Positions 356-36,400 of a stretch of DNA of 64,000 nt are shown in pieces. Source of the DNA: the human T2T-CHM13v2.0 reference genome, Homo sapiens. The translations under genes were made by a program, and so were the position numbers. The stretch is from the NCBI RefSeq assembly GCF_009914755.1, contig NC_060937.1. One strand, written 5' to 3'. Under the pieces are notes generated by a model. It made no database searches. It saw nothing but the letters and a program-made list of their open reading frames with translations, and was not told the DNA's origin. Within the stretch, counting starts at the first letter, position 1; every line of letters begins with the position of its first letter.

Positions 356-415
356 GAGTCAGGATCTTGATAACATCGTCAAAGTGGCCACTTCACTTCA
401 GAGAAGTGACAAAGG
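356..415 (+). CDS. SCEL: SCEL repeat exon (60 nt): [20 protein letters not shown]
   Basis: tttgaag|...AAAGG|gtgaga; phase 2-2, open frame. Confidence 0.95.
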
Positions 416-3400
416 GTGAGATCTCAGAGCTTTTGAGCTTGGGTTTTATCTTCCCTGGTGTTTCAAAAATGCTTAACCACACCTTTAAAAGTTCCAAATA
501 TGAACAAAATCCTAGTGCTGTATATCGTATATAATTTAAAATAAGAAAGCATCAGTTTCTCCAGATAAGTATTCCTGAATAGTGGATGGTGCCAACATTT
601 ATGGACACTCTTCCAACTCTGCTGCTTTTTCTGGCAATTTTACTCACCCAGTGACCTCAGCTGTCAAGCCTCATTCCAAATATCCAGTCCTGTATTTATG
701 TTGCTGGTCCAGATCTCCACTCATCTCCTAGCACCACCCCTCAGGATGTCCAAGGTCATATCCAAATTCCTTCCCAAATGTGCTGTTCCTCACTTCTCTG
801 TTCTTGAATTCCTGCAGACTCACCTTTCTGGAATAATTCTTGATTCTTCCTTCTCCTTCCCCTTAAGTAGTATCATGCATGCACGAATTAAACATCTAAA
901 ATGTCCCTCATGTGTACACGGATTTCCCCTAGTTTAAAACCTCATTGACTCCTTCACAGATTATTAGAGTAGTTATTCAGCTTTACTTACACTCTTCAGG
1001 CTTTCCTTCCACTAAACTATTATCACCCATCAATGCCATAATTTTTCCAAAGATTCTGCTCAATCACTGAACCAGATCCACATTGCCCATTCAATGGCAT
1101 ATAACCTCATTCAAAGCCCTTGCGAACCTGGCTCCAGCCTCACATTCCAGTTATTTCTGTTTTCACTCCTATATTTATCCTACGTTCATATCAAGGGAAA
1201 CCATTTTCTCTCTGTAGTTTCCAAATACTCTGGCTTTGTTTATACCACATGGTAGCCTTTTCCAGCCTCAAGCCACCATGCCAATCCATCCAAGCCCTGC
1301 CCATTGTTCAAGATCTGGATCAAGTGGCACCTTCTCTGTTGTCTTCCCTGAGTGATCCAGTGAGATGTGACTTCTGCCTCTATTAGCACTTAGAGTTGCA
1401 CTATTCATATTTTATAAGAGCGAATCATACTCAGTTTTGTTTCCTGTTATTTGCATAAGTGTGTTACCTTCTCTATCATCTCTATAGTCTCTCAGGGCAG
1501 ATATTTTGTCTTATTTGCCATTTACAGTGTGTGACATGATGCTTTGTACACAGTGTTTAATAGATTATGGTAAAATCATAATATTCCATTGTTTAAGTCC
1601 AAAGCTCTCAAAAATATTCCTTGTTTAATAGATTTTAGTAATGCTAAGAGTGTTGTTAGAGATTGCAGTCTCTGTCAAAAGAATTGAAGAGAAGAAAATG
1701 TGACACTTGGCTTTTCTGTGCAAATTCATAAACAAAATAGGAGCTCTGAATCCAGACAGAGTCTATAGAAATTGTCCTGAATGTTTCATTTCCATGTCTT
1801 CCCTCATTGAAGTGTCTAGATCTCTAATTTTATTGATTTATTTCTGTTGCAGGTAATATTTTGTTTCCAGTAGGGATTAGACAGTGGTTTGGTGGGTGAT
1901 CGGGATATCTGAGAAACAGATAAGTGAGTGACTCTGAAGGGAAATTATGGTTTGGTGTAAATCAAATAAAAACTGTCAGAGAGGCAGTTAGTTTAACTTT
2001 CCTGTCCCTGCTCCCTAGCCATAATGCTCAAATTCCACAGCCAGGTACATTTATCACAGAGAGAAGTTGCTGCTTGACAGGGATCAGGAAAAATGTTCAT
2101 GGTAGTCATCATAGAGTATTGTTTCTTTGGACCATCCACAGGGAGTAGAAATGGCTTTAGTTATCCGAGCTGCTCTTTGTGAAATGGAATGTTACTGCTA
2201 TCTGATTAAGAGCATTTAATTTGTTACAAATGCAATGGTGAAACTTAATATCCAAAGCTTTCATCAATTTAAAGTCATTTTGAAAGCTTAAGTTTTTTAT
2301 TTGGAATACAGTATCCATTTTATTTAATTTGCCACAGAGTGTCTTCTCATGATTTATGCTAATTTTCTTGGGATAAAGCAACTCCAAATCCTGATAATCT
2401 CATCATTGTGACTCATGCCAGTCAGGAAAGCCTGGGGCTAAAATTTATAGGACTCGTGGGTTTGCTCTTTCCCTTGGGGACATGAACAGATTGTTAGTCT
2501 CAGAGTTAGTGGGTAGAATATCAAGCAAGAAACAGTAATGGGTTACTGTGTCAAGGGACTGGGTAGTGTTTGTCACACACAAGGATAGAGCATTAATTTT
2601 TTTGTTGTTGTTAGAGGCAGCAACTTTTGTATTTCAGTATTTATTCTCAGGCAACAATTCTACCATTGATACCTAAAACTACTTGACAGGATTCACCTAT
2701 GTACTGGCTGTTAATTTAGGGTCTCTAAGAGGACTACCCTCAGCAGCTATTCTTGCTATAGTGTCATCGTGCCAGGCATCTTCAAGCACATAAGTGACTT
2801 AGCAATTGCATCTCTTTCTAAAGGCTAAGTCGAAGTCTTGGTGTTTCTAAGTGCAATTAAAAAATAAGTATAGCAAGCATTTACTAGGTTGGGCGTGGTG
2901 GCTCACACCTGTAATCCCAGCACTTTGGGAGGCTGAGGTGGGCAGATCACCTGAGGTAAGGAGTTCAAGACCAGCTTGGCAAACATGGTGAAACCCCATC
3001 TCTACTAAAACTACAAAAATTAGCTGGGCATGGTGGTGCACACCTTTAGTCCCAGCTACTTGGGAGGCTGAGGCAGGAGAATTGCTTGAACCTGGGAGGC
3101 GGAGGTTGCAGTGAGCCAAGATCATGCCATTGAACTCCAGTTTGGGCAACAAGAGTGAAACTCTGTCTTAAAAAAAAAAAAGTATAGCAAGCATTTATTA
3201 AACAAAAAATTTAGTAATGACAGGGCATTATTTATTATAATGGCCCAAATTAATCAGGAATTTATGACTTGTTAGGCATTGTGCTAAATACTTTATATTC
3301 ATGAGCTTATGAATCTTTTCTGAGGTGGGTATGATTAGTATTCTCATTTTACAAATGGGAAAATTAAGTCCACAGAAGGTTAGGTAACTCACCCAGATTC

Positions 3401-33400: not shown

Positions 33401-36400
33401 TCCATGCTGTTCTCATGAGAGCCAGTGAGTTTCCATGAGATCTGATAGTTTAAAAGTGTTTGGTGGTTCCCCCTGGCAGCCTTATGAAGTCTTATGAAGA
33501 ACGTACTTGTTTCTCCTTCACCTTCTGCCATGATTGTAAGTTTCCTGGAGCCTCCCCAGCCATATGGAACTGTAAGTCAATTAAGCCTCTTTTCTTCATA
33601 AATTACCTAGTCTCAGGCAGTTCTCTATAGCAGTGTGGAAACAGACTAATAAGCAAAATAAAGTTTAGAATGGTTGACTAACTTGGTCACAGAAGTAAGG
33701 AAAAAACTGGGTCTCATTGTTTTGACTTCTAAACAGTGCTCCTACCCTATTAACAAAGACGTTTCCTAACTCATGACAAAAGAAAAAAAAAAGAACTATC
33801 AATGTTATACCTAATATATAAATAACATACCAGAGGATCTTGTATCTCATGAAAGGGTGTCAAATCATTAATGCAGCCCAAGATATAAGAATCAAATTAC
33901 TCCATTTCTTCCCCCACATAATGAATTATTTATTCAAATTTTGTGTTGATTTCCCTTGTTTCTGTGATCCCCAAAGCCTAAATAAGGTCTCTGGGTAAAC
34001 ATCTAAGAATTGATTTCAGGTGGGCAGATGGCATCATCTCAAATCTTGACTCTTCCAAAAATTAATTAATTGGCCTTGGAAAATTTACTTTGCCTGTCTG
34101 AGCTCCAGATGCTGTTCTGCAGGACTTTTGTGAGATCTGAATGAGATAATCCTTGTGAAAACACAGTACTTCATGACACAAAGATAGTACTCATTAAATG
34201 TTAGCTGAAAAGAAGTCGATTAATGGGTACAAATATACAGTTTGATAAAAGAAATAAGACCTAGTATTAGATCAGTAGGGTGACTATAGTTTACAATTAT
34301 TGATTGTACATTTCCAAATAACTAGATGAGAAGACATTGAATAAGTCTAGCATAAAGAAAAGATAAACATTTAAGGTGATAGATAGCCCAAGTACACTAA
34401 TTTGATCTTTACAAATTATATGAATGTATTAAATCACACATACCCTGAAACTTTGTACATCTATTATACATCAATAAAAAAAGAAAAATGAGCTGAATGT
34501 TAATAAAAATTAGTGATTTCTTTTCAGATCAGATTTCCCAAACCTTCCAAAAAGTTAGTTCTTTATTTCTCTTTCACAATGTAATCCATACTTCCATGTT
34601 TGATCCATGAGTTGTATGGATCAAATAGCTCAATGTCAGATATTCAATCTCCCATAGCCTGATAGACCACAAATGACTGTGTCTAAGATTATGTACTGAT
34701 TTTAAAATGTTTTAGCATTTTCTTATTTCCTATCATTATGTTGTAATTATTCATATATATATATTTTTTTCCTTAGAGACCAGAACCTGGAAAATTTAAT
34801 TGAAGTAAATTCTCATGTGTCTGAAAACAAGAATGGAAGGTAAAGCTTATTATAATTCACTTTTTTTCTTATGAGTTCTATATGCATCTGCATATATTGT
34901 ATAGCCTTAGAAGATTATATATATAAAATATAATATTATATATTATGTAATATATAATTTGGATAGTGTGTATGTATATGTGTGTATATATATGTGTGTG
35001 TATATATATATATATATATCATCCAAATACAAAAATTTACAAGGTGCTTAATAGCTAATAGGGAAAAATTAATATAATTCTTATTCTGTTAGAATTTCTG
35101 ACTCAGGGCCTGCTGTTCTATTGCTTAGTGTAAATGGCATCATGGAAATTCAAAGCTCTTTGGGGCTGTGAAGATTTATTTTTACTTACTGTTGCTTGGT
35201 AAGCTCTCAGCAGTGCAGAAAGCACTCTGGGAATCTCTTCCTTGGATGCCTAGTGCTAAAAGAATGCATGAATTTATCACAGCCACAAAACAGGACCTAA
35301 TTTTGAAATTTCTTTACACCATAGGGTATAATAGCTTTAAAACTGTGATACCTTATTGGCCATTACAAGAAAGGTTAGGACAGGAGCTATACTTCATTTT
35401 TGTCACAGACTGTATACTTCAGGAAAAATTAACTTTTCCATGTTTAGCAATTCTTACCCCTACATATGAGGGAATACTAAACACAATAGGTTACCATTTT
35501 CACCTTCATAGGTGCAGTTACCTTTTCTATTATTTTTTCTATGAAAAGAAATGATATTGCGATTTCATCTGCAGAGAATGGAAAAGCTAGGAAAAGAGCT
35601 GGCTCATTTTTCTTTTTCATACTGTCTCTAAAAGGTTCCTGAATCCGACAGGTAGATAGTTTCTTTCCATTCCTTTAGTTCCCCAAAACATCTTCTTCCT
35701 TCTGTTTGTGACCTTGAGAAAGTCTTTGAGAGAATGAGGGAGGATAAATTTTCAGTAGAATCTGCTTATCCTGGAAACACATGTACTATTTTGGGAATAG
35801 GACTGGGCTTACATTTAACTAATCTCATTCAAGTATTATTTGGAAGTGATTGGGGTAAAAAAAATTACAAGTAAATTATTACGTAAAATTAAGGAATTTC
35901 CCATTTGATTTGAGAAGCATTCCAGTTCCATTGGACTTGTTCATGAAATGGGATTAATGAGGAAATGGAATTTCATGGAAGTTCAAGAGCAGGAATGGTG
36001 GCATTGCCGGGCCTCAGAGAGATTTCACTTGGGAGATTGTCCATTCTTGACCTGAAGAAGTTTGGAACCCTTGGACATTAACTAGAGTTCTTTGTTACTA
36101 ATGGAACTCAGCTAGTCACTGAGTATTGGCTTTTGTCCATCTTTTTCCTGCCCTTCCCTGTACCTGTTGGCTTCCTTATTCTCTGCTCTTCTGTTTGATA
36201 ACCAAATTTTTTTTTGCCTCTCAGTTTTGGCTTCTTTGTAACTTCAGCTTACTCTACCTCTTCAGGTACTTTAATGAATCAAATTAAAAATCTAAATAAG
36301 AGTCCCGGGAAAATCTGCTAAACTGAAAGGTGATTCATTTTATGAATGTATTCACTTTACATCGTAATTGGATGCCCAAGCAAATACATGTTTTCTAATT

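What the first reader, a model, noticed from the sequence alone, without database searches (positions are those of the whole stretch)
356..34839. Hidden exon graveyard: SCEL introns carry extra, decaying copies of the 60-nt repeat exon
Seen: besides 17 intact repeat exons, intronic stretches resemble the repeat exon in sequence, length and splice-site context, in graded states of decay. These are: intact frame with GC donor (7529), 1-nt deletion with both splice dinucleotides kept (13244), donor lost (2379, 20237), acceptor lost (9296), both lost (8238), and internal stops (8625, 1871). Inference: the repeat number of this cornified-envelope protein evolves by birth and death of symmetric exons, and the ancestral array was longer. 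Individual copies may be coding in other mammals or be used at low level in human. I do not know whether this has been described.
Basis: partly seen in the sequence, partly recalled or inferred. Interest (0 to 1): 0.8.

Follow-up and report, generated by a model that had tools for sequence, protein, structure and literature searches.

The report
Dead repeat exons in SCEL introns
The introns of the human skin-barrier gene SCEL hold four or five decayed copies of its 60-base repeat exon, one of which is still a coding exon in horse, bat, rabbit, squirrels, tarsier and anteater, a tidy but unsurprising case of exon loss.

Summary
Partly confirmed. A profile of the 17 annotated repeat exons with 30-nt flanks finds four intronic copies above every control. 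Candidate 8238 is borderline: 8.5 bits after iteration, reached by 4 of 200 shuffles. Candidates 8625, 9296, 20237 and 1871 are noise.

A repeat with the core FIKENPR sits directly after the orthologue of exon 6527 in 14 of 133 placental sciellin models. These come from horse, bat, rabbit, two squirrels, tarsier, anteater and one unnamed source. Bat and horse models carry it in tandem with the exon-8903 repeat, in the order of the human DNA. The human copy has a GC donor and has changed two residues invariant elsewhere. No stored protein contains it.

The other relics have no coding counterpart in 277 proteins. 10247 keeps AG, GTGAG, 60 nt and an open frame, so unannotated use is not excluded. 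Exon death is shown; recent exon birth is not. This is a new member of a known kind.

The parts
7529..7588 (+). Relic exon 'r7529'. It is 60 nt with an AAG acceptor and a GC donor (AGG|GCAAGG). It is open in the exon phase and reads [19 protein letters not shown]. It lies in the intron between exons 6527-6586 and 8903-8962.
   Evidence: 37.9 bits, E 7e-11; alignment; frame. It falls within the leave-one-out range of live exons, 17.2-66.4 bits. Coding orthologues occur in 14 of 133 placental proteins at the same place in the array. It is single copy in the genome.
10247..10306 (+). It is 60 nt with an AAG acceptor and a GTGAGC donor with A at -1. It is open in the exon phase and reads [19 protein letters not shown]. 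It lies in the intron between exons 9914-9973 and 11193-11252.
   Evidence: 25.1 bits, E 7e-7; alignment; translation. It falls within the live leave-one-out range. No coding counterpart appears in 277 proteins. It is single copy. It is not among the RefSeq exons given with the finding.
13244..13302 (+). Relic exon 'r13244'. It is 59 nt with a 1-nt deletion after its 12th base, and AG and GT are kept. After the deletion it reads [15 protein letters not shown] in the shifted frame. It lies in the intron between exons 11193-11252 and 14893-14952.
   Evidence: 12.5 bits, E 0.006; 0 of 200 shuffles reach 12.5; alignment with the gap; translation. No coding counterpart was found.
2379..2439 (+). 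Relic exon 'r2379'. It has an AAG acceptor, a 1-nt insertion in the first 11 nt, and no GT at the expected donor. Its core reads [16 protein letters not shown]. It lies in the intron between exons 356-415 and 4383-4427.
   Evidence: 8.1 bits with the flank profile and 11.0 bits exon-only. Shuffles reach 8 bits in 7 of 200 and 10 bits in 1 of 200. A single-exon query with 24632 gives 12.2 bits, E 0.012. R1 to R2 spacing is 20-21 aa in 104 of 104 ordered pairs, so no coding counterpart exists there.
8238..8297 (+). Possible fifth relic, with both splice sites gone and a 2-nt deletion. It lies between r7529 and exon 8903-8962. This one is unresolved.
   Evidence: No hit with the first profile. 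With the iterated profile it scores 8.5 bits, E 0.11, aligned over profile positions 12-96. 4 of 200 shuffles reach 8.5. No coding counterpart: the bat and horse models run R4, r7529, R5 with nothing between.
356..415 (+). Live repeat exon R1 (60 nt), the first unit of the array.
   Evidence: Annotation given with the finding; 62.9 bits. No repeat-like hit occurs in the 60 kb upstream.
4383..4427 (+). Live repeat exon R2 (45 nt).
   Evidence: 38.3 bits.
6167..6226 (+). Live repeat exon R3 (60 nt).
   Evidence: 54.4 bits.
6527..6586 (+). Live repeat exon R4 (60 nt). In other mammals the r7529-type repeat follows its orthologue directly.
   Evidence: 57.9 bits.
8903..8962 (+). Live repeat exon R5 (60 nt), the closest paralogue of r7529 (39 of 60 bases identical without gaps).
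   Evidence: 58.1 bits.
9492..9551 (+). Live repeat exon R6 (60 nt).
   Evidence: 48.6 bits.
9914..9973 (+). Live repeat exon R7 (60 nt).
   Evidence: 61.8 bits.
11193..11252 (+). Live repeat exon R8 (60 nt), skipped in human isoform 3.
   Evidence: 65.9 bits.
14893..14952 (+). Live repeat exon R9 (60 nt).
   Evidence: 75.7 bits.
15895..15954 (+). Live repeat exon R10 (60 nt).
   Evidence: 67.2 bits.
16884..16943 (+). Live repeat exon R11 (60 nt).
   Evidence: 75.5 bits.
19725..19775 (+). Live repeat exon R12 (51 nt).
   Evidence: 52.3 bits.
20727..20789 (+). Live repeat exon R13 (63 nt).
   Evidence: 56.5 bits.
24428..24487 (+). Live repeat exon R14 (60 nt).
   Evidence: 59.1 bits.
24632..24691 (+). 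Live repeat exon R15 (60 nt).
   Evidence: 66.6 bits.
24833..24889 (+). Live repeat exon R16 (57 nt).
   Evidence: 57.9 bits.
34777..34839 (+). Live repeat exon R17 (63 nt), the last unit.
   Evidence: 41.0 bits.

Best explanation
The central domain of sciellin is built from one exon per 20-residue repeat. All these exons are multiples of 3 nt and sit in the same intron phase: one base completes the previous codon and two bases start the next. Any unit can therefore be dropped or added without breaking the frame.

The intronic look-alikes are former members of this exon array that stopped being spliced in and have since decayed at the neutral rate.

The youngest is 7529-7588. It was a working exon in the placental ancestor and still codes in several orders. 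In the lineage to human, after the split from tarsiers if the tarsier model is right, its donor became GC and two core residues changed. It then dropped out of the annotated mRNAs.

10247-10306, 13244-13302, about 2379-2439 and perhaps 8238-8297 are older losses. None codes in any sampled placental, and they show progressively more damage:
- 10247: a weakened donor only.
- 13244: a frameshift.
- 2379: a frameshift plus a lost donor.
- 8238: both splice sites lost.

Shown: homology of four copies, their position and strand, their splice and frame state, and coding orthologues of 7529. Inferred: that the four without orthologues were once coding, the order of the deaths, and that none is used in human today.
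For: (1) Four plus-strand intronic hits score 37.9, 25.1, 12.5 and 8.1 bits. The best background is 5.5-6.8 bits in the rest of the window on both strands. It is 5.7 bits in 60 kb upstream. The maximum over 200 local dinucleotide shuffles is 10.9 bits, with a 95th percentile of 7.6.

(2) Each relic lies in a different, longer-than-typical intron of the array, on the coding strand. All four with a recognisable 5' end keep the family's unusual AAG acceptor, which 12 of the 17 live exons also have.

(3) Units share no intron sequence beyond about 20 nt from the exon. A copy abandoned at the time of duplication would therefore be unrecognisable, so recognisable relics must have been held by selection until later. 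A decay simulation gives a median leave-one-out score of 40 bits at d=0. It falls to 23.6 at d=0.1, 12 at d=0.2 and 4 at d=0.3, and nothing is detected at d=0.4 or more.

(4) 14 of 133 placental sciellin proteins have a repeat with the core FIKENPR immediately after the R4 orthologue. The named species are Equus przewalskii, Rousettus, Oryctolagus, Sciurus, Ictidomys, Carlito and Tamandua; there is also one unnamed source. In a reciprocal tblastn, 807 unique repeat peptides were mapped. 795 map best to the 17 annotated exons. 7 r7529-type peptides map best to 7530-7589 (E 2e-5 to 9e-8). The other 5 map to unrelated spots, and none maps to another relic.

(5) Three proteins hold R4, r7529 and R5 in tandem, in the order of the human DNA. 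They are two Rousettus isoforms and Equus P0127.

(6) The human copy differs from all 13 other r7529-type proteins (8 distinct sequences) at I8 (now T) and K9 (now R) and has a GC donor. No protein in the store matches the human relic frame. All 9 anthropoid and 4 strepsirrhine species listed go straight from R4 to R5.
Against: - The orthologues are mostly predicted gene models (names as given by the sources). I could not see their transcript support or their DNA.
- 7529 and 10247 score within the range of live exons. Both keep an open frame and usable-looking splice signals, so 'dead' rests on absence from annotation, not on transcript data.
- For 10247, 13244, 2379 and 8238 there is no direct evidence that they ever coded.
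- The human relic's protein divergence from non-primates (best score 0.68 of self-score) is at the low end of the live range of 0.61-1.0 but inside it. Acceleration is therefore not demonstrated.
- Many species' models have either the r7529-type or the R5-type repeat but not both. That would need several independent losses, or it reflects alternative splicing and incomplete annotation.
Confidence: 0.8

Rival explanations
1. One or both of the two well-kept copies (10247-10306 with AG/GT, 7529-7588 with AG/GC) are live, unannotated cassette exons. They would add a 20-residue repeat to a minor human sciellin isoform.
For: Both are exactly 60 nt and open in the exon phase, with a polypyrimidine tract plus AAG acceptor. 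Their profile scores of 25.1 and 37.9 bits lie within the leave-one-out range of live exons, 17.2-66.4. Other units of the array are known cassette exons: R8 is absent from human isoform 3, and many predicted skipping isoforms exist.
Against: - Neither is among the exons of the 25 RefSeq transcripts supplied with the finding.
- No stored protein contains the 7529 reading frame.
- 7529 has a GC donor and has lost two residues that are invariant in the species where it codes.
- 10247 has A at donor position -1, where all 17 live exons have G.
- 10247 has F where the family has P at position 12.
- 10247 has no coding counterpart in 277 proteins.
Confidence: 0.15
2. The intronic look-alikes are chance matches in AT-rich intron DNA.
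For: At that level, shuffles give 0.6-1.3 hits per 34 kb. 8238 is reached by 4 of 200 shuffles. Pairwise Smith-Waterman and ungapped identity scans do not separate most candidates from background.
Against: For 7529, 10247 and 13244, 0 of 200 shuffles reach their scores. 2379 exceeds all natural-sequence controls in three searches. All four lie on the coding strand inside the array. 7529 has coding orthologues.
Confidence: 0.03
3. The relics are kept by selection as intronic splicing regulators, acting as decoy or 'zero-length' exons that help define the neighbouring short exons, and not as coding sequence.
For: In 7529 and 10247 the splice-signal flanks score far better than the exon bodies: 37.9 against 10.1 bits and 25.1 against 11.0 bits.
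Against: Live exons show the same pattern of flank-driven scores, for example R6 at 17.2 against 6.7 bits. There are no conservation data. 13244 and 2379 are visibly decaying. This is pure inference.
Confidence: 0.05
4. r7529 and R5 are a mutually exclusive exon pair rather than one live and one dead exon.
For: They are adjacent, of equal length, and each other's closest paralogues (39 of 60 bases). Most models hold one or the other.
Against: Three proteins from two species hold both in tandem. Both exons are in the same phase and a multiple of 3, so nothing forces exclusion. No human or ape model holds r7529.
Confidence: 0.05

Closest known systems
Unannotated intronic duplicates of neighbouring exons (tandem exon duplication surveys)
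   Same: These are exon-like sequences found in introns by similarity to the adjacent exons of the same gene. PMC9013439 (abstract and passages read) describes this search in human. It cites a 2002 survey that found more than 2,000 such candidates.
   Different: Those surveys aim at live or mutually exclusive exons and use pairwise identity. The figure legend seen shows the pairs at 80% identity. Here the copies are about 55-65% identical to any live exon and only a family profile finds them. SCEL is not named in that paper's main text, and its supplements could not be opened.
Lineage-specific exon loss ('exon death') leaving a pseudoexon in the intron
   Same: An ancestral coding exon, still coding in other orders, is present in human as unspliced intronic sequence with a damaged splice site.
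   Different: The donor change is GT to GC, which is not an absolute block. The frame is intact, so the loss is not proven at the RNA level.
Sciellin's described repeat domain (16 inexact repeats of 20 residues)
   Same: The relics belong to the same repeat family as this domain. PMC5041940 (passage read) cites the 1998 cloning paper, which I could not read.
   Different: The window holds 17 repeat-like exons, counting the 45-nt and 63-nt end units, plus 4-5 relics. The description seen does not mention intronic copies or a longer array in other mammals.

Membership tests
SCEL repeat-exon family (homology) | Significant match to a profile of the live exons plus flanks, on the coding strand, inside the array | tested here: met
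   7529, 10247, 13244 and 2379 all pass. 8238 is inconclusive. 8625, 9296, 20237 and 1871 fail.
SCEL repeat-exon family (homology) | Length a multiple of 3 (45-63 nt) and an open frame in the shared intron phase | tested here: met
   Met by 7529 and 10247, both 60 nt and open. Not met by 13244 (59 nt, stop after the shift) or by 2379 (1-nt insertion, two stops).
Live SCEL exon | AG acceptor and GT donor | tested here: inconclusive
   10247 has AG and GTGAGC, but A at -1. 7529 has AG and GC. 13244 has AG and GT. 2379 has AG and no donor. 8238 has neither.
Live SCEL exon | Inclusion in a human mRNA or protein | tested here: not met
   None of the relics is among the RefSeq exons supplied with the finding. 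For 7529, no protein in the 5.8-billion store matches it. For 10247 the same search could not be made because its frame is only 21 codons long and the minimum is 40. RNA-seq is not available here.
Pseudoexon from lineage-specific exon loss | Orthologous exon coding in other species at the same position in the gene | tested here: met
   Met for 7529 only: 14 of 133 proteins, directly after R4, and before R5 in 3 of them. Not met for 10247, 13244, 2379 and 8238 in 277 proteins. Synteny at the DNA level is not testable with these tools.
Mutually exclusive exon pair (r7529 / R5) | The two exons are never included together | tested here: not met
   Rousettus X3 and X7 and Equus P0127 contain both.
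Dispersed repeat / transposon fragment | Many copies elsewhere in the genome | tested here: not met
   221-nt stretches around 7529 and 10247 match only themselves in the whole assembly. The tool skips very common words, so this is moderate evidence.

The most novel reading that the evidence does not exclude
Human SCEL still has at least one unannotated, in-frame 60-nt cassette exon. The candidates are 10247-10306 with canonical AG/GT, or 7529-7588 through its GC donor. Such an exon would be spliced in at a low level or in a particular tissue and would add an 18th repeat to sciellin. The neighbouring pair r7529/R5 would then be an exon pair kept differently in different mammalian lineages.
Probability: 0.15. 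Interest if true: 0.5.

Novelty: new member of a known kind. Interest (0 to 1): 0.4.

Why it matters
It gives a clean, checkable example of how the repeat number of a modular structural protein changes: by loss of symmetric exons that stay visible in the introns for tens of millions of years.

It shows that the placental sciellin array had at least 18 units, and that human and the other anthropoids sampled lack one that horse, bat, rabbit, squirrels, tarsier and anteater still use.

It also flags two intronic sequences (T2T chr13:76,825,529-76,825,588 and 76,828,247-76,828,306) with near-complete exon signals. A single base change near either could plausibly switch on inclusion of an extra in-frame segment, which matters for interpreting deep-intronic SCEL variants and for annotation.

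Beyond that it is ordinary. Intronic exon relics in tandem-exon genes are a known kind.

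Tried and rejected
- **Pairwise scans.** A Smith-Waterman scan of 100-nt windows against all exons and an ungapped 60-nt identity scan were tried. Background from poly-T flanks and A-rich DNA reaches the same scores as most relics, and only 7529 (39 of 60) stands out. I rejected both as detectors in favour of the profile.
- **Single-exon nhmmer queries** (a first version timed out). 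These found only 2364-2456.
- **Self-BLAST of 1-36 kb for intron homology that could place lost units by synteny**. It returned only dispersed repeats and the exons with 20 nt or less of flank, so synteny-guided search is impossible.
- **Human relic frame as a query**. One candidate shared words and none scored.
- **Distant sciellin representatives**. 96 repeat peptides from 144 proteins were mapped and none fell on a relic. At that distance unit-level orthology is lost, so this says little.
- **Automatic 'R5-type' flag.** It was too lenient and miscalled Sciurus and Carlito. The count of proteins with both repeats (3) rests.
- **Literature.** Five searches found nothing on SCEL intronic exon copies. 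The 1998 cloning paper is not held.

Full report
**What was checked.** The window is T2T chr13:76,818,001-76,882,000. It holds the repeat part and the LIM end of SCEL. I extracted the 17 annotated repeat exons between 356 and 34839. Twelve are 60 nt and the others are 45, 51, 57, 63 and 63 nt. Translating the joined coding parts shows that every repeat exon starts with one base that completes the previous codon and ends with two bases of the next. The units are therefore symmetric and interchangeable without frame damage.

- All 17 exons score 38.3-75.7 bits.
- Four non-exon hits follow, all on the + strand and all inside the array:
  - 7507-7617 (37.9 bits, E 7e-11)
  - 10225-10327 (25.1 bits, E 7e-7)
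  - 13235-13295 (12.5 bits, E 0.006)
  - 2387-2431 (8.1 bits with flanks; 11.0 bits, E 0.03, exon-only)
- The next best hits are 6.8 and 5.7 bits, on the minus strand lying over live exons, and 5.5 bits at 59289.

Controls:
- I made 200 dinucleotide-preserving shuffles of the 34 kb of array introns, in 1-kb blocks. The plus-strand maximum per shuffle averages 4.0 bits, with a 95th percentile of 7.6 and an overall maximum of 10.9.
- 7 of 200 shuffles reach 8 bits and 0 of 200 reach 12.5 bits.
- For the exon-only profile, 1 of 200 reaches 10 bits.
- The 60 kb of SCEL upstream of the window (L002-L007) gives nothing above 5.7 bits on either strand.

A single-exon query with 24632 independently hits 2364-2434 at 12.2 bits, E 0.012.

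After adding the four copies to the profile, the top new hit is 8220-8302. It scores 8.5 bits, E 0.11, and aligns across profile positions 12-96 with a 2-nt gap. 4 of 200 shuffles reach that score, so 8238 is possible but unproven.

8625 scores 2.1-4.0 bits, and 9296, 20237 and 1871 score about 1 bit or less. At 4 bits, shuffles give 0.6-1.3 hits per scan.

**Anatomy of the copies**.
- **7529-7588:** 60 nt, acceptor ...ttgttgaaag|, donor AGG|GCAAGG, open in phase ([19 protein letters not shown]).
- **10247-10306:** 60 nt, acceptor ...gtgcctaaag|, donor AGA|GTGAGC, open in phase ([19 protein letters not shown]). All 17 live donors have G at -1, whereas this one has A.
- **13244-13302:** 59 nt, AG and GT kept, with one base missing after the 12th base. 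Downstream of the gap the shifted frame reads [15 protein letters not shown], a good family match.
- **2379-2439:** AAG acceptor kept, one extra base in the first 11 nt, core [16 protein letters not shown], and no GT at the expected donor.
- **Shared acceptor:** all four keep the AAG acceptor (A at -3) that 12 of the 17 live exons share.
- **Copy number:** 221-nt stretches around 7529 and 10247 match only themselves in the whole assembly, so they are not dispersed repeats.

**How decayed are they?** Leave-one-out scoring is the fair comparison, because the relics were not in the training set.
- Live exons score 17.2-66.4 bits with flanks and 6.7-40.9 bits exon-only.
- 7529 (37.9 / 10.1) and 10247 (25.1 / 11.0) lie inside the live range.
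- 13244 (12.5 / 2.8) and 2379 (8.1 / 11.0) lie at or below its bottom.

A self-BLAST of 1-36 kb finds no similarity between units beyond about 20 nt from the exons. The duplications are therefore so old that neutral sequence of that age is unrecognisable.

I also mutated live exons in silico, with transitions favoured and indels at 10% of the substitution rate. The median leave-one-out score falls from 40 bits to 23.6 (0.1 substitutions per site), 12 (0.2) and 4 (0.3). At 0.4 and above nothing is detected.

Recognisable relics must therefore have been under selection until well after the array formed. Their scores correspond roughly to 0-0.1 (7529), 0.1 (10247), 0.2 (13244) and 0.2-0.3 (2379) substitutions per site of free decay. 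This is a rough scale, not a date.

**Are any coding elsewhere?** Single exons are too short for the protein store. I therefore used the stop-to-stop frame around the LIM exon (window:47448-47654) and obtained sciellins of many mammals: 298 hits with 120 listed.

Local alignment of the relic translations against them gave a clear answer for 7529. It matches NQTLDSFIKENPRAVKNDK (Sciurus), NQSLDSFIKENPRTVENDK (Equus przewalskii), NQTLDNFIKENPRTLSSDK (Oryctolagus) and NQTRSSFIKENPRTTKNDK (unnamed source). The scores are 59-70, against 52 or less for any other repeat. In each protein this repeat follows the orthologue of R4 (exon 6527) directly.

A targeted search with the horse R4+r7529 region returned 15 proteins. 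The new ones are from Rousettus, Ictidomys, Carlito (tarsier), Tamandua, Cervus and Bos, plus a second Equus model.
- Rousettus X3 and X7 and Equus P0127 read R4, r7529, R5 in tandem. That is exactly the order 6527, 7529, 8903 of the human DNA.
- Tarsier, ground squirrel and anteater read R4, r7529, R6.
- Cervus, Bos and rhinoceros read R4, R5.

In all, 14 of 133 proteins carry the core F-I-K-E-N-P-R. They come from 7 named species and one unnamed source. The R5 flag was too lenient, and the count of three 'both' proteins rests.

Reciprocally, I mapped 807 unique repeat peptides from the 133 proteins onto the window by tblastn.
- 795 map best to the 17 annotated exons.
- 7 r7529-type peptides map best to 7530-7589 (E 2e-5 to 9e-8).
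- 5 map to unrelated places.
- None maps to another relic.

The human copy differs from every other r7529-type sequence at I8 (T in human) and K9 (R in human), and also at positions 6 and 14. All anthropoid models (Homo, Pan, Gorilla, Pongo, Macaca, Piliocolobus, Aotus, Cebus, Sapajus) pass from R4 to R5, as do all strepsirrhine models (Nycticebus, Otolemur, Prolemur, Propithecus). The human relic frame (window:7491-7652) finds no protein at all in the store.

For the other relics there is no coding counterpart.
- Best alignment scores are 35, 43 and 38, the level of ordinary cross-repeat similarity.
- R1 to R2 spacing is 20-21 residues in 104 of 104 ordered pairs.
- R7 to R8 and R8 to R9 show no true extra unit; the 40-residue cases are mis-assigned paralogues in skipping isoforms.
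- 96 repeat peptides from 144 distant representatives also miss the relics. At that distance this says little.

**Best explanation.** The array grew long ago by tandem duplication of a symmetric 60-nt exon. Since then it has lost units, each loss leaving a relic that fades at the neutral rate.

7529 is a loss in the lineage leading to human, later than the tarsier split if that model is right. The placental ancestor therefore had at least 18 units.

10247, 13244, 2379 and perhaps 8238 are older losses. That they once coded is inferred from two things. They are recognisable although intron sequence of the array's age is not. They also keep family-specific splice flanks.

'Birth' is not shown. 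The most similar exon pairs are R9/R11, R14/R15 and R12/R16, at 80-90% identity over 39-87 nt. All of them have orthologues across placentals.

**What stays open.**
- Whether 7529 or 10247 is spliced at a low level in human. No RNA data are available here, and both look spliceable on paper.
- Whether the species whose models lack R5 or r7529 have lost the exon or merely skip it.
- DNA-level synteny of the orthologues.
- The status of 8238.

The orthologues are mostly predicted models whose transcript support I could not see.

**Comparison with what is known.** Finding exon-like duplicates in neighbouring introns is an established idea. PMC9013439 (abstract and passages read) does this genome-wide in human. 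It cites a 2002 survey with more than 2,000 candidates. The sciellin description I could read speaks of 16 inexact 20-residue repeats and a LIM domain (PMC5041940, passage). Five full-text searches found nothing on intronic SCEL exon copies or on a longer array in other mammals. The original cloning paper is not held, and I did not look up the gene-structure paper that I recall. I therefore cannot say that they are silent on this.

**Verdict.** This is a new, well-supported member of a known kind. It is of moderate interest, mainly for annotation, for reading deep-intronic variants, and as a teaching example of exon death.

Noticed in passing
window 6593-6858, 8980-9088, 11108-11227, 13314-13388 (minus strand): The four SCEL-AS1 exons given with the finding each sit beside or on a repeat unit. 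They lie 7 nt after exon 6527-6586, 18 nt after exon 8903-8962 and overlapping exon 11193-11252. The first antisense exon lies 12 nt after the relic 13244-13302. It is unexplained whether the antisense RNA reuses the units' splice-signal-like flanks.
   Followed up: no
window, acceptors of the 17 repeat exons and of the relics at 7529, 10247, 13244 and 2379: 12 of 17 live repeat exons and all four relics use an AAG acceptor (A at -3). As I recall, this is a minority choice among human acceptors. It looks like a family trait inherited with the duplications.
   Followed up: partly
orthologue proteins P0001-P0133: The number and set of recognised repeats varies widely between species and predicted isoforms, from about 10 to 17 units. 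Many muroid models show no unit assigned to R10 and often none assigned to R12. Human isoform 3 lacks R8. This is confounded by isoform sampling and by my score thresholds.
   Followed up: partly
orthologue proteins, the repeat after R4: Rabbit, two squirrels, tarsier and anteater models have the r7529-type repeat but no R5-type repeat. Most other species show the reverse, and only bat and horse models have both. This suggests reciprocal loss or lineage-specific splicing of two neighbouring paralogous exons.
   Followed up: partly
window 24428-24889: Three repeat exons (R14, R15, R16) are separated by introns of only 144 and 141 nt, far shorter than the other array introns of 300-9,887 nt.
   Followed up: no
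P0067 (Nyctereutes), P0040 (Alexandromys), P0052 (Thomomys), P0100 (Heterocephalus): Some deposited orthologue models contain non-repeat stretches inside the repeat domain that look like translated intron, for example after the R5-type unit in P0067. Model quality is therefore uneven.
   Followed up: no
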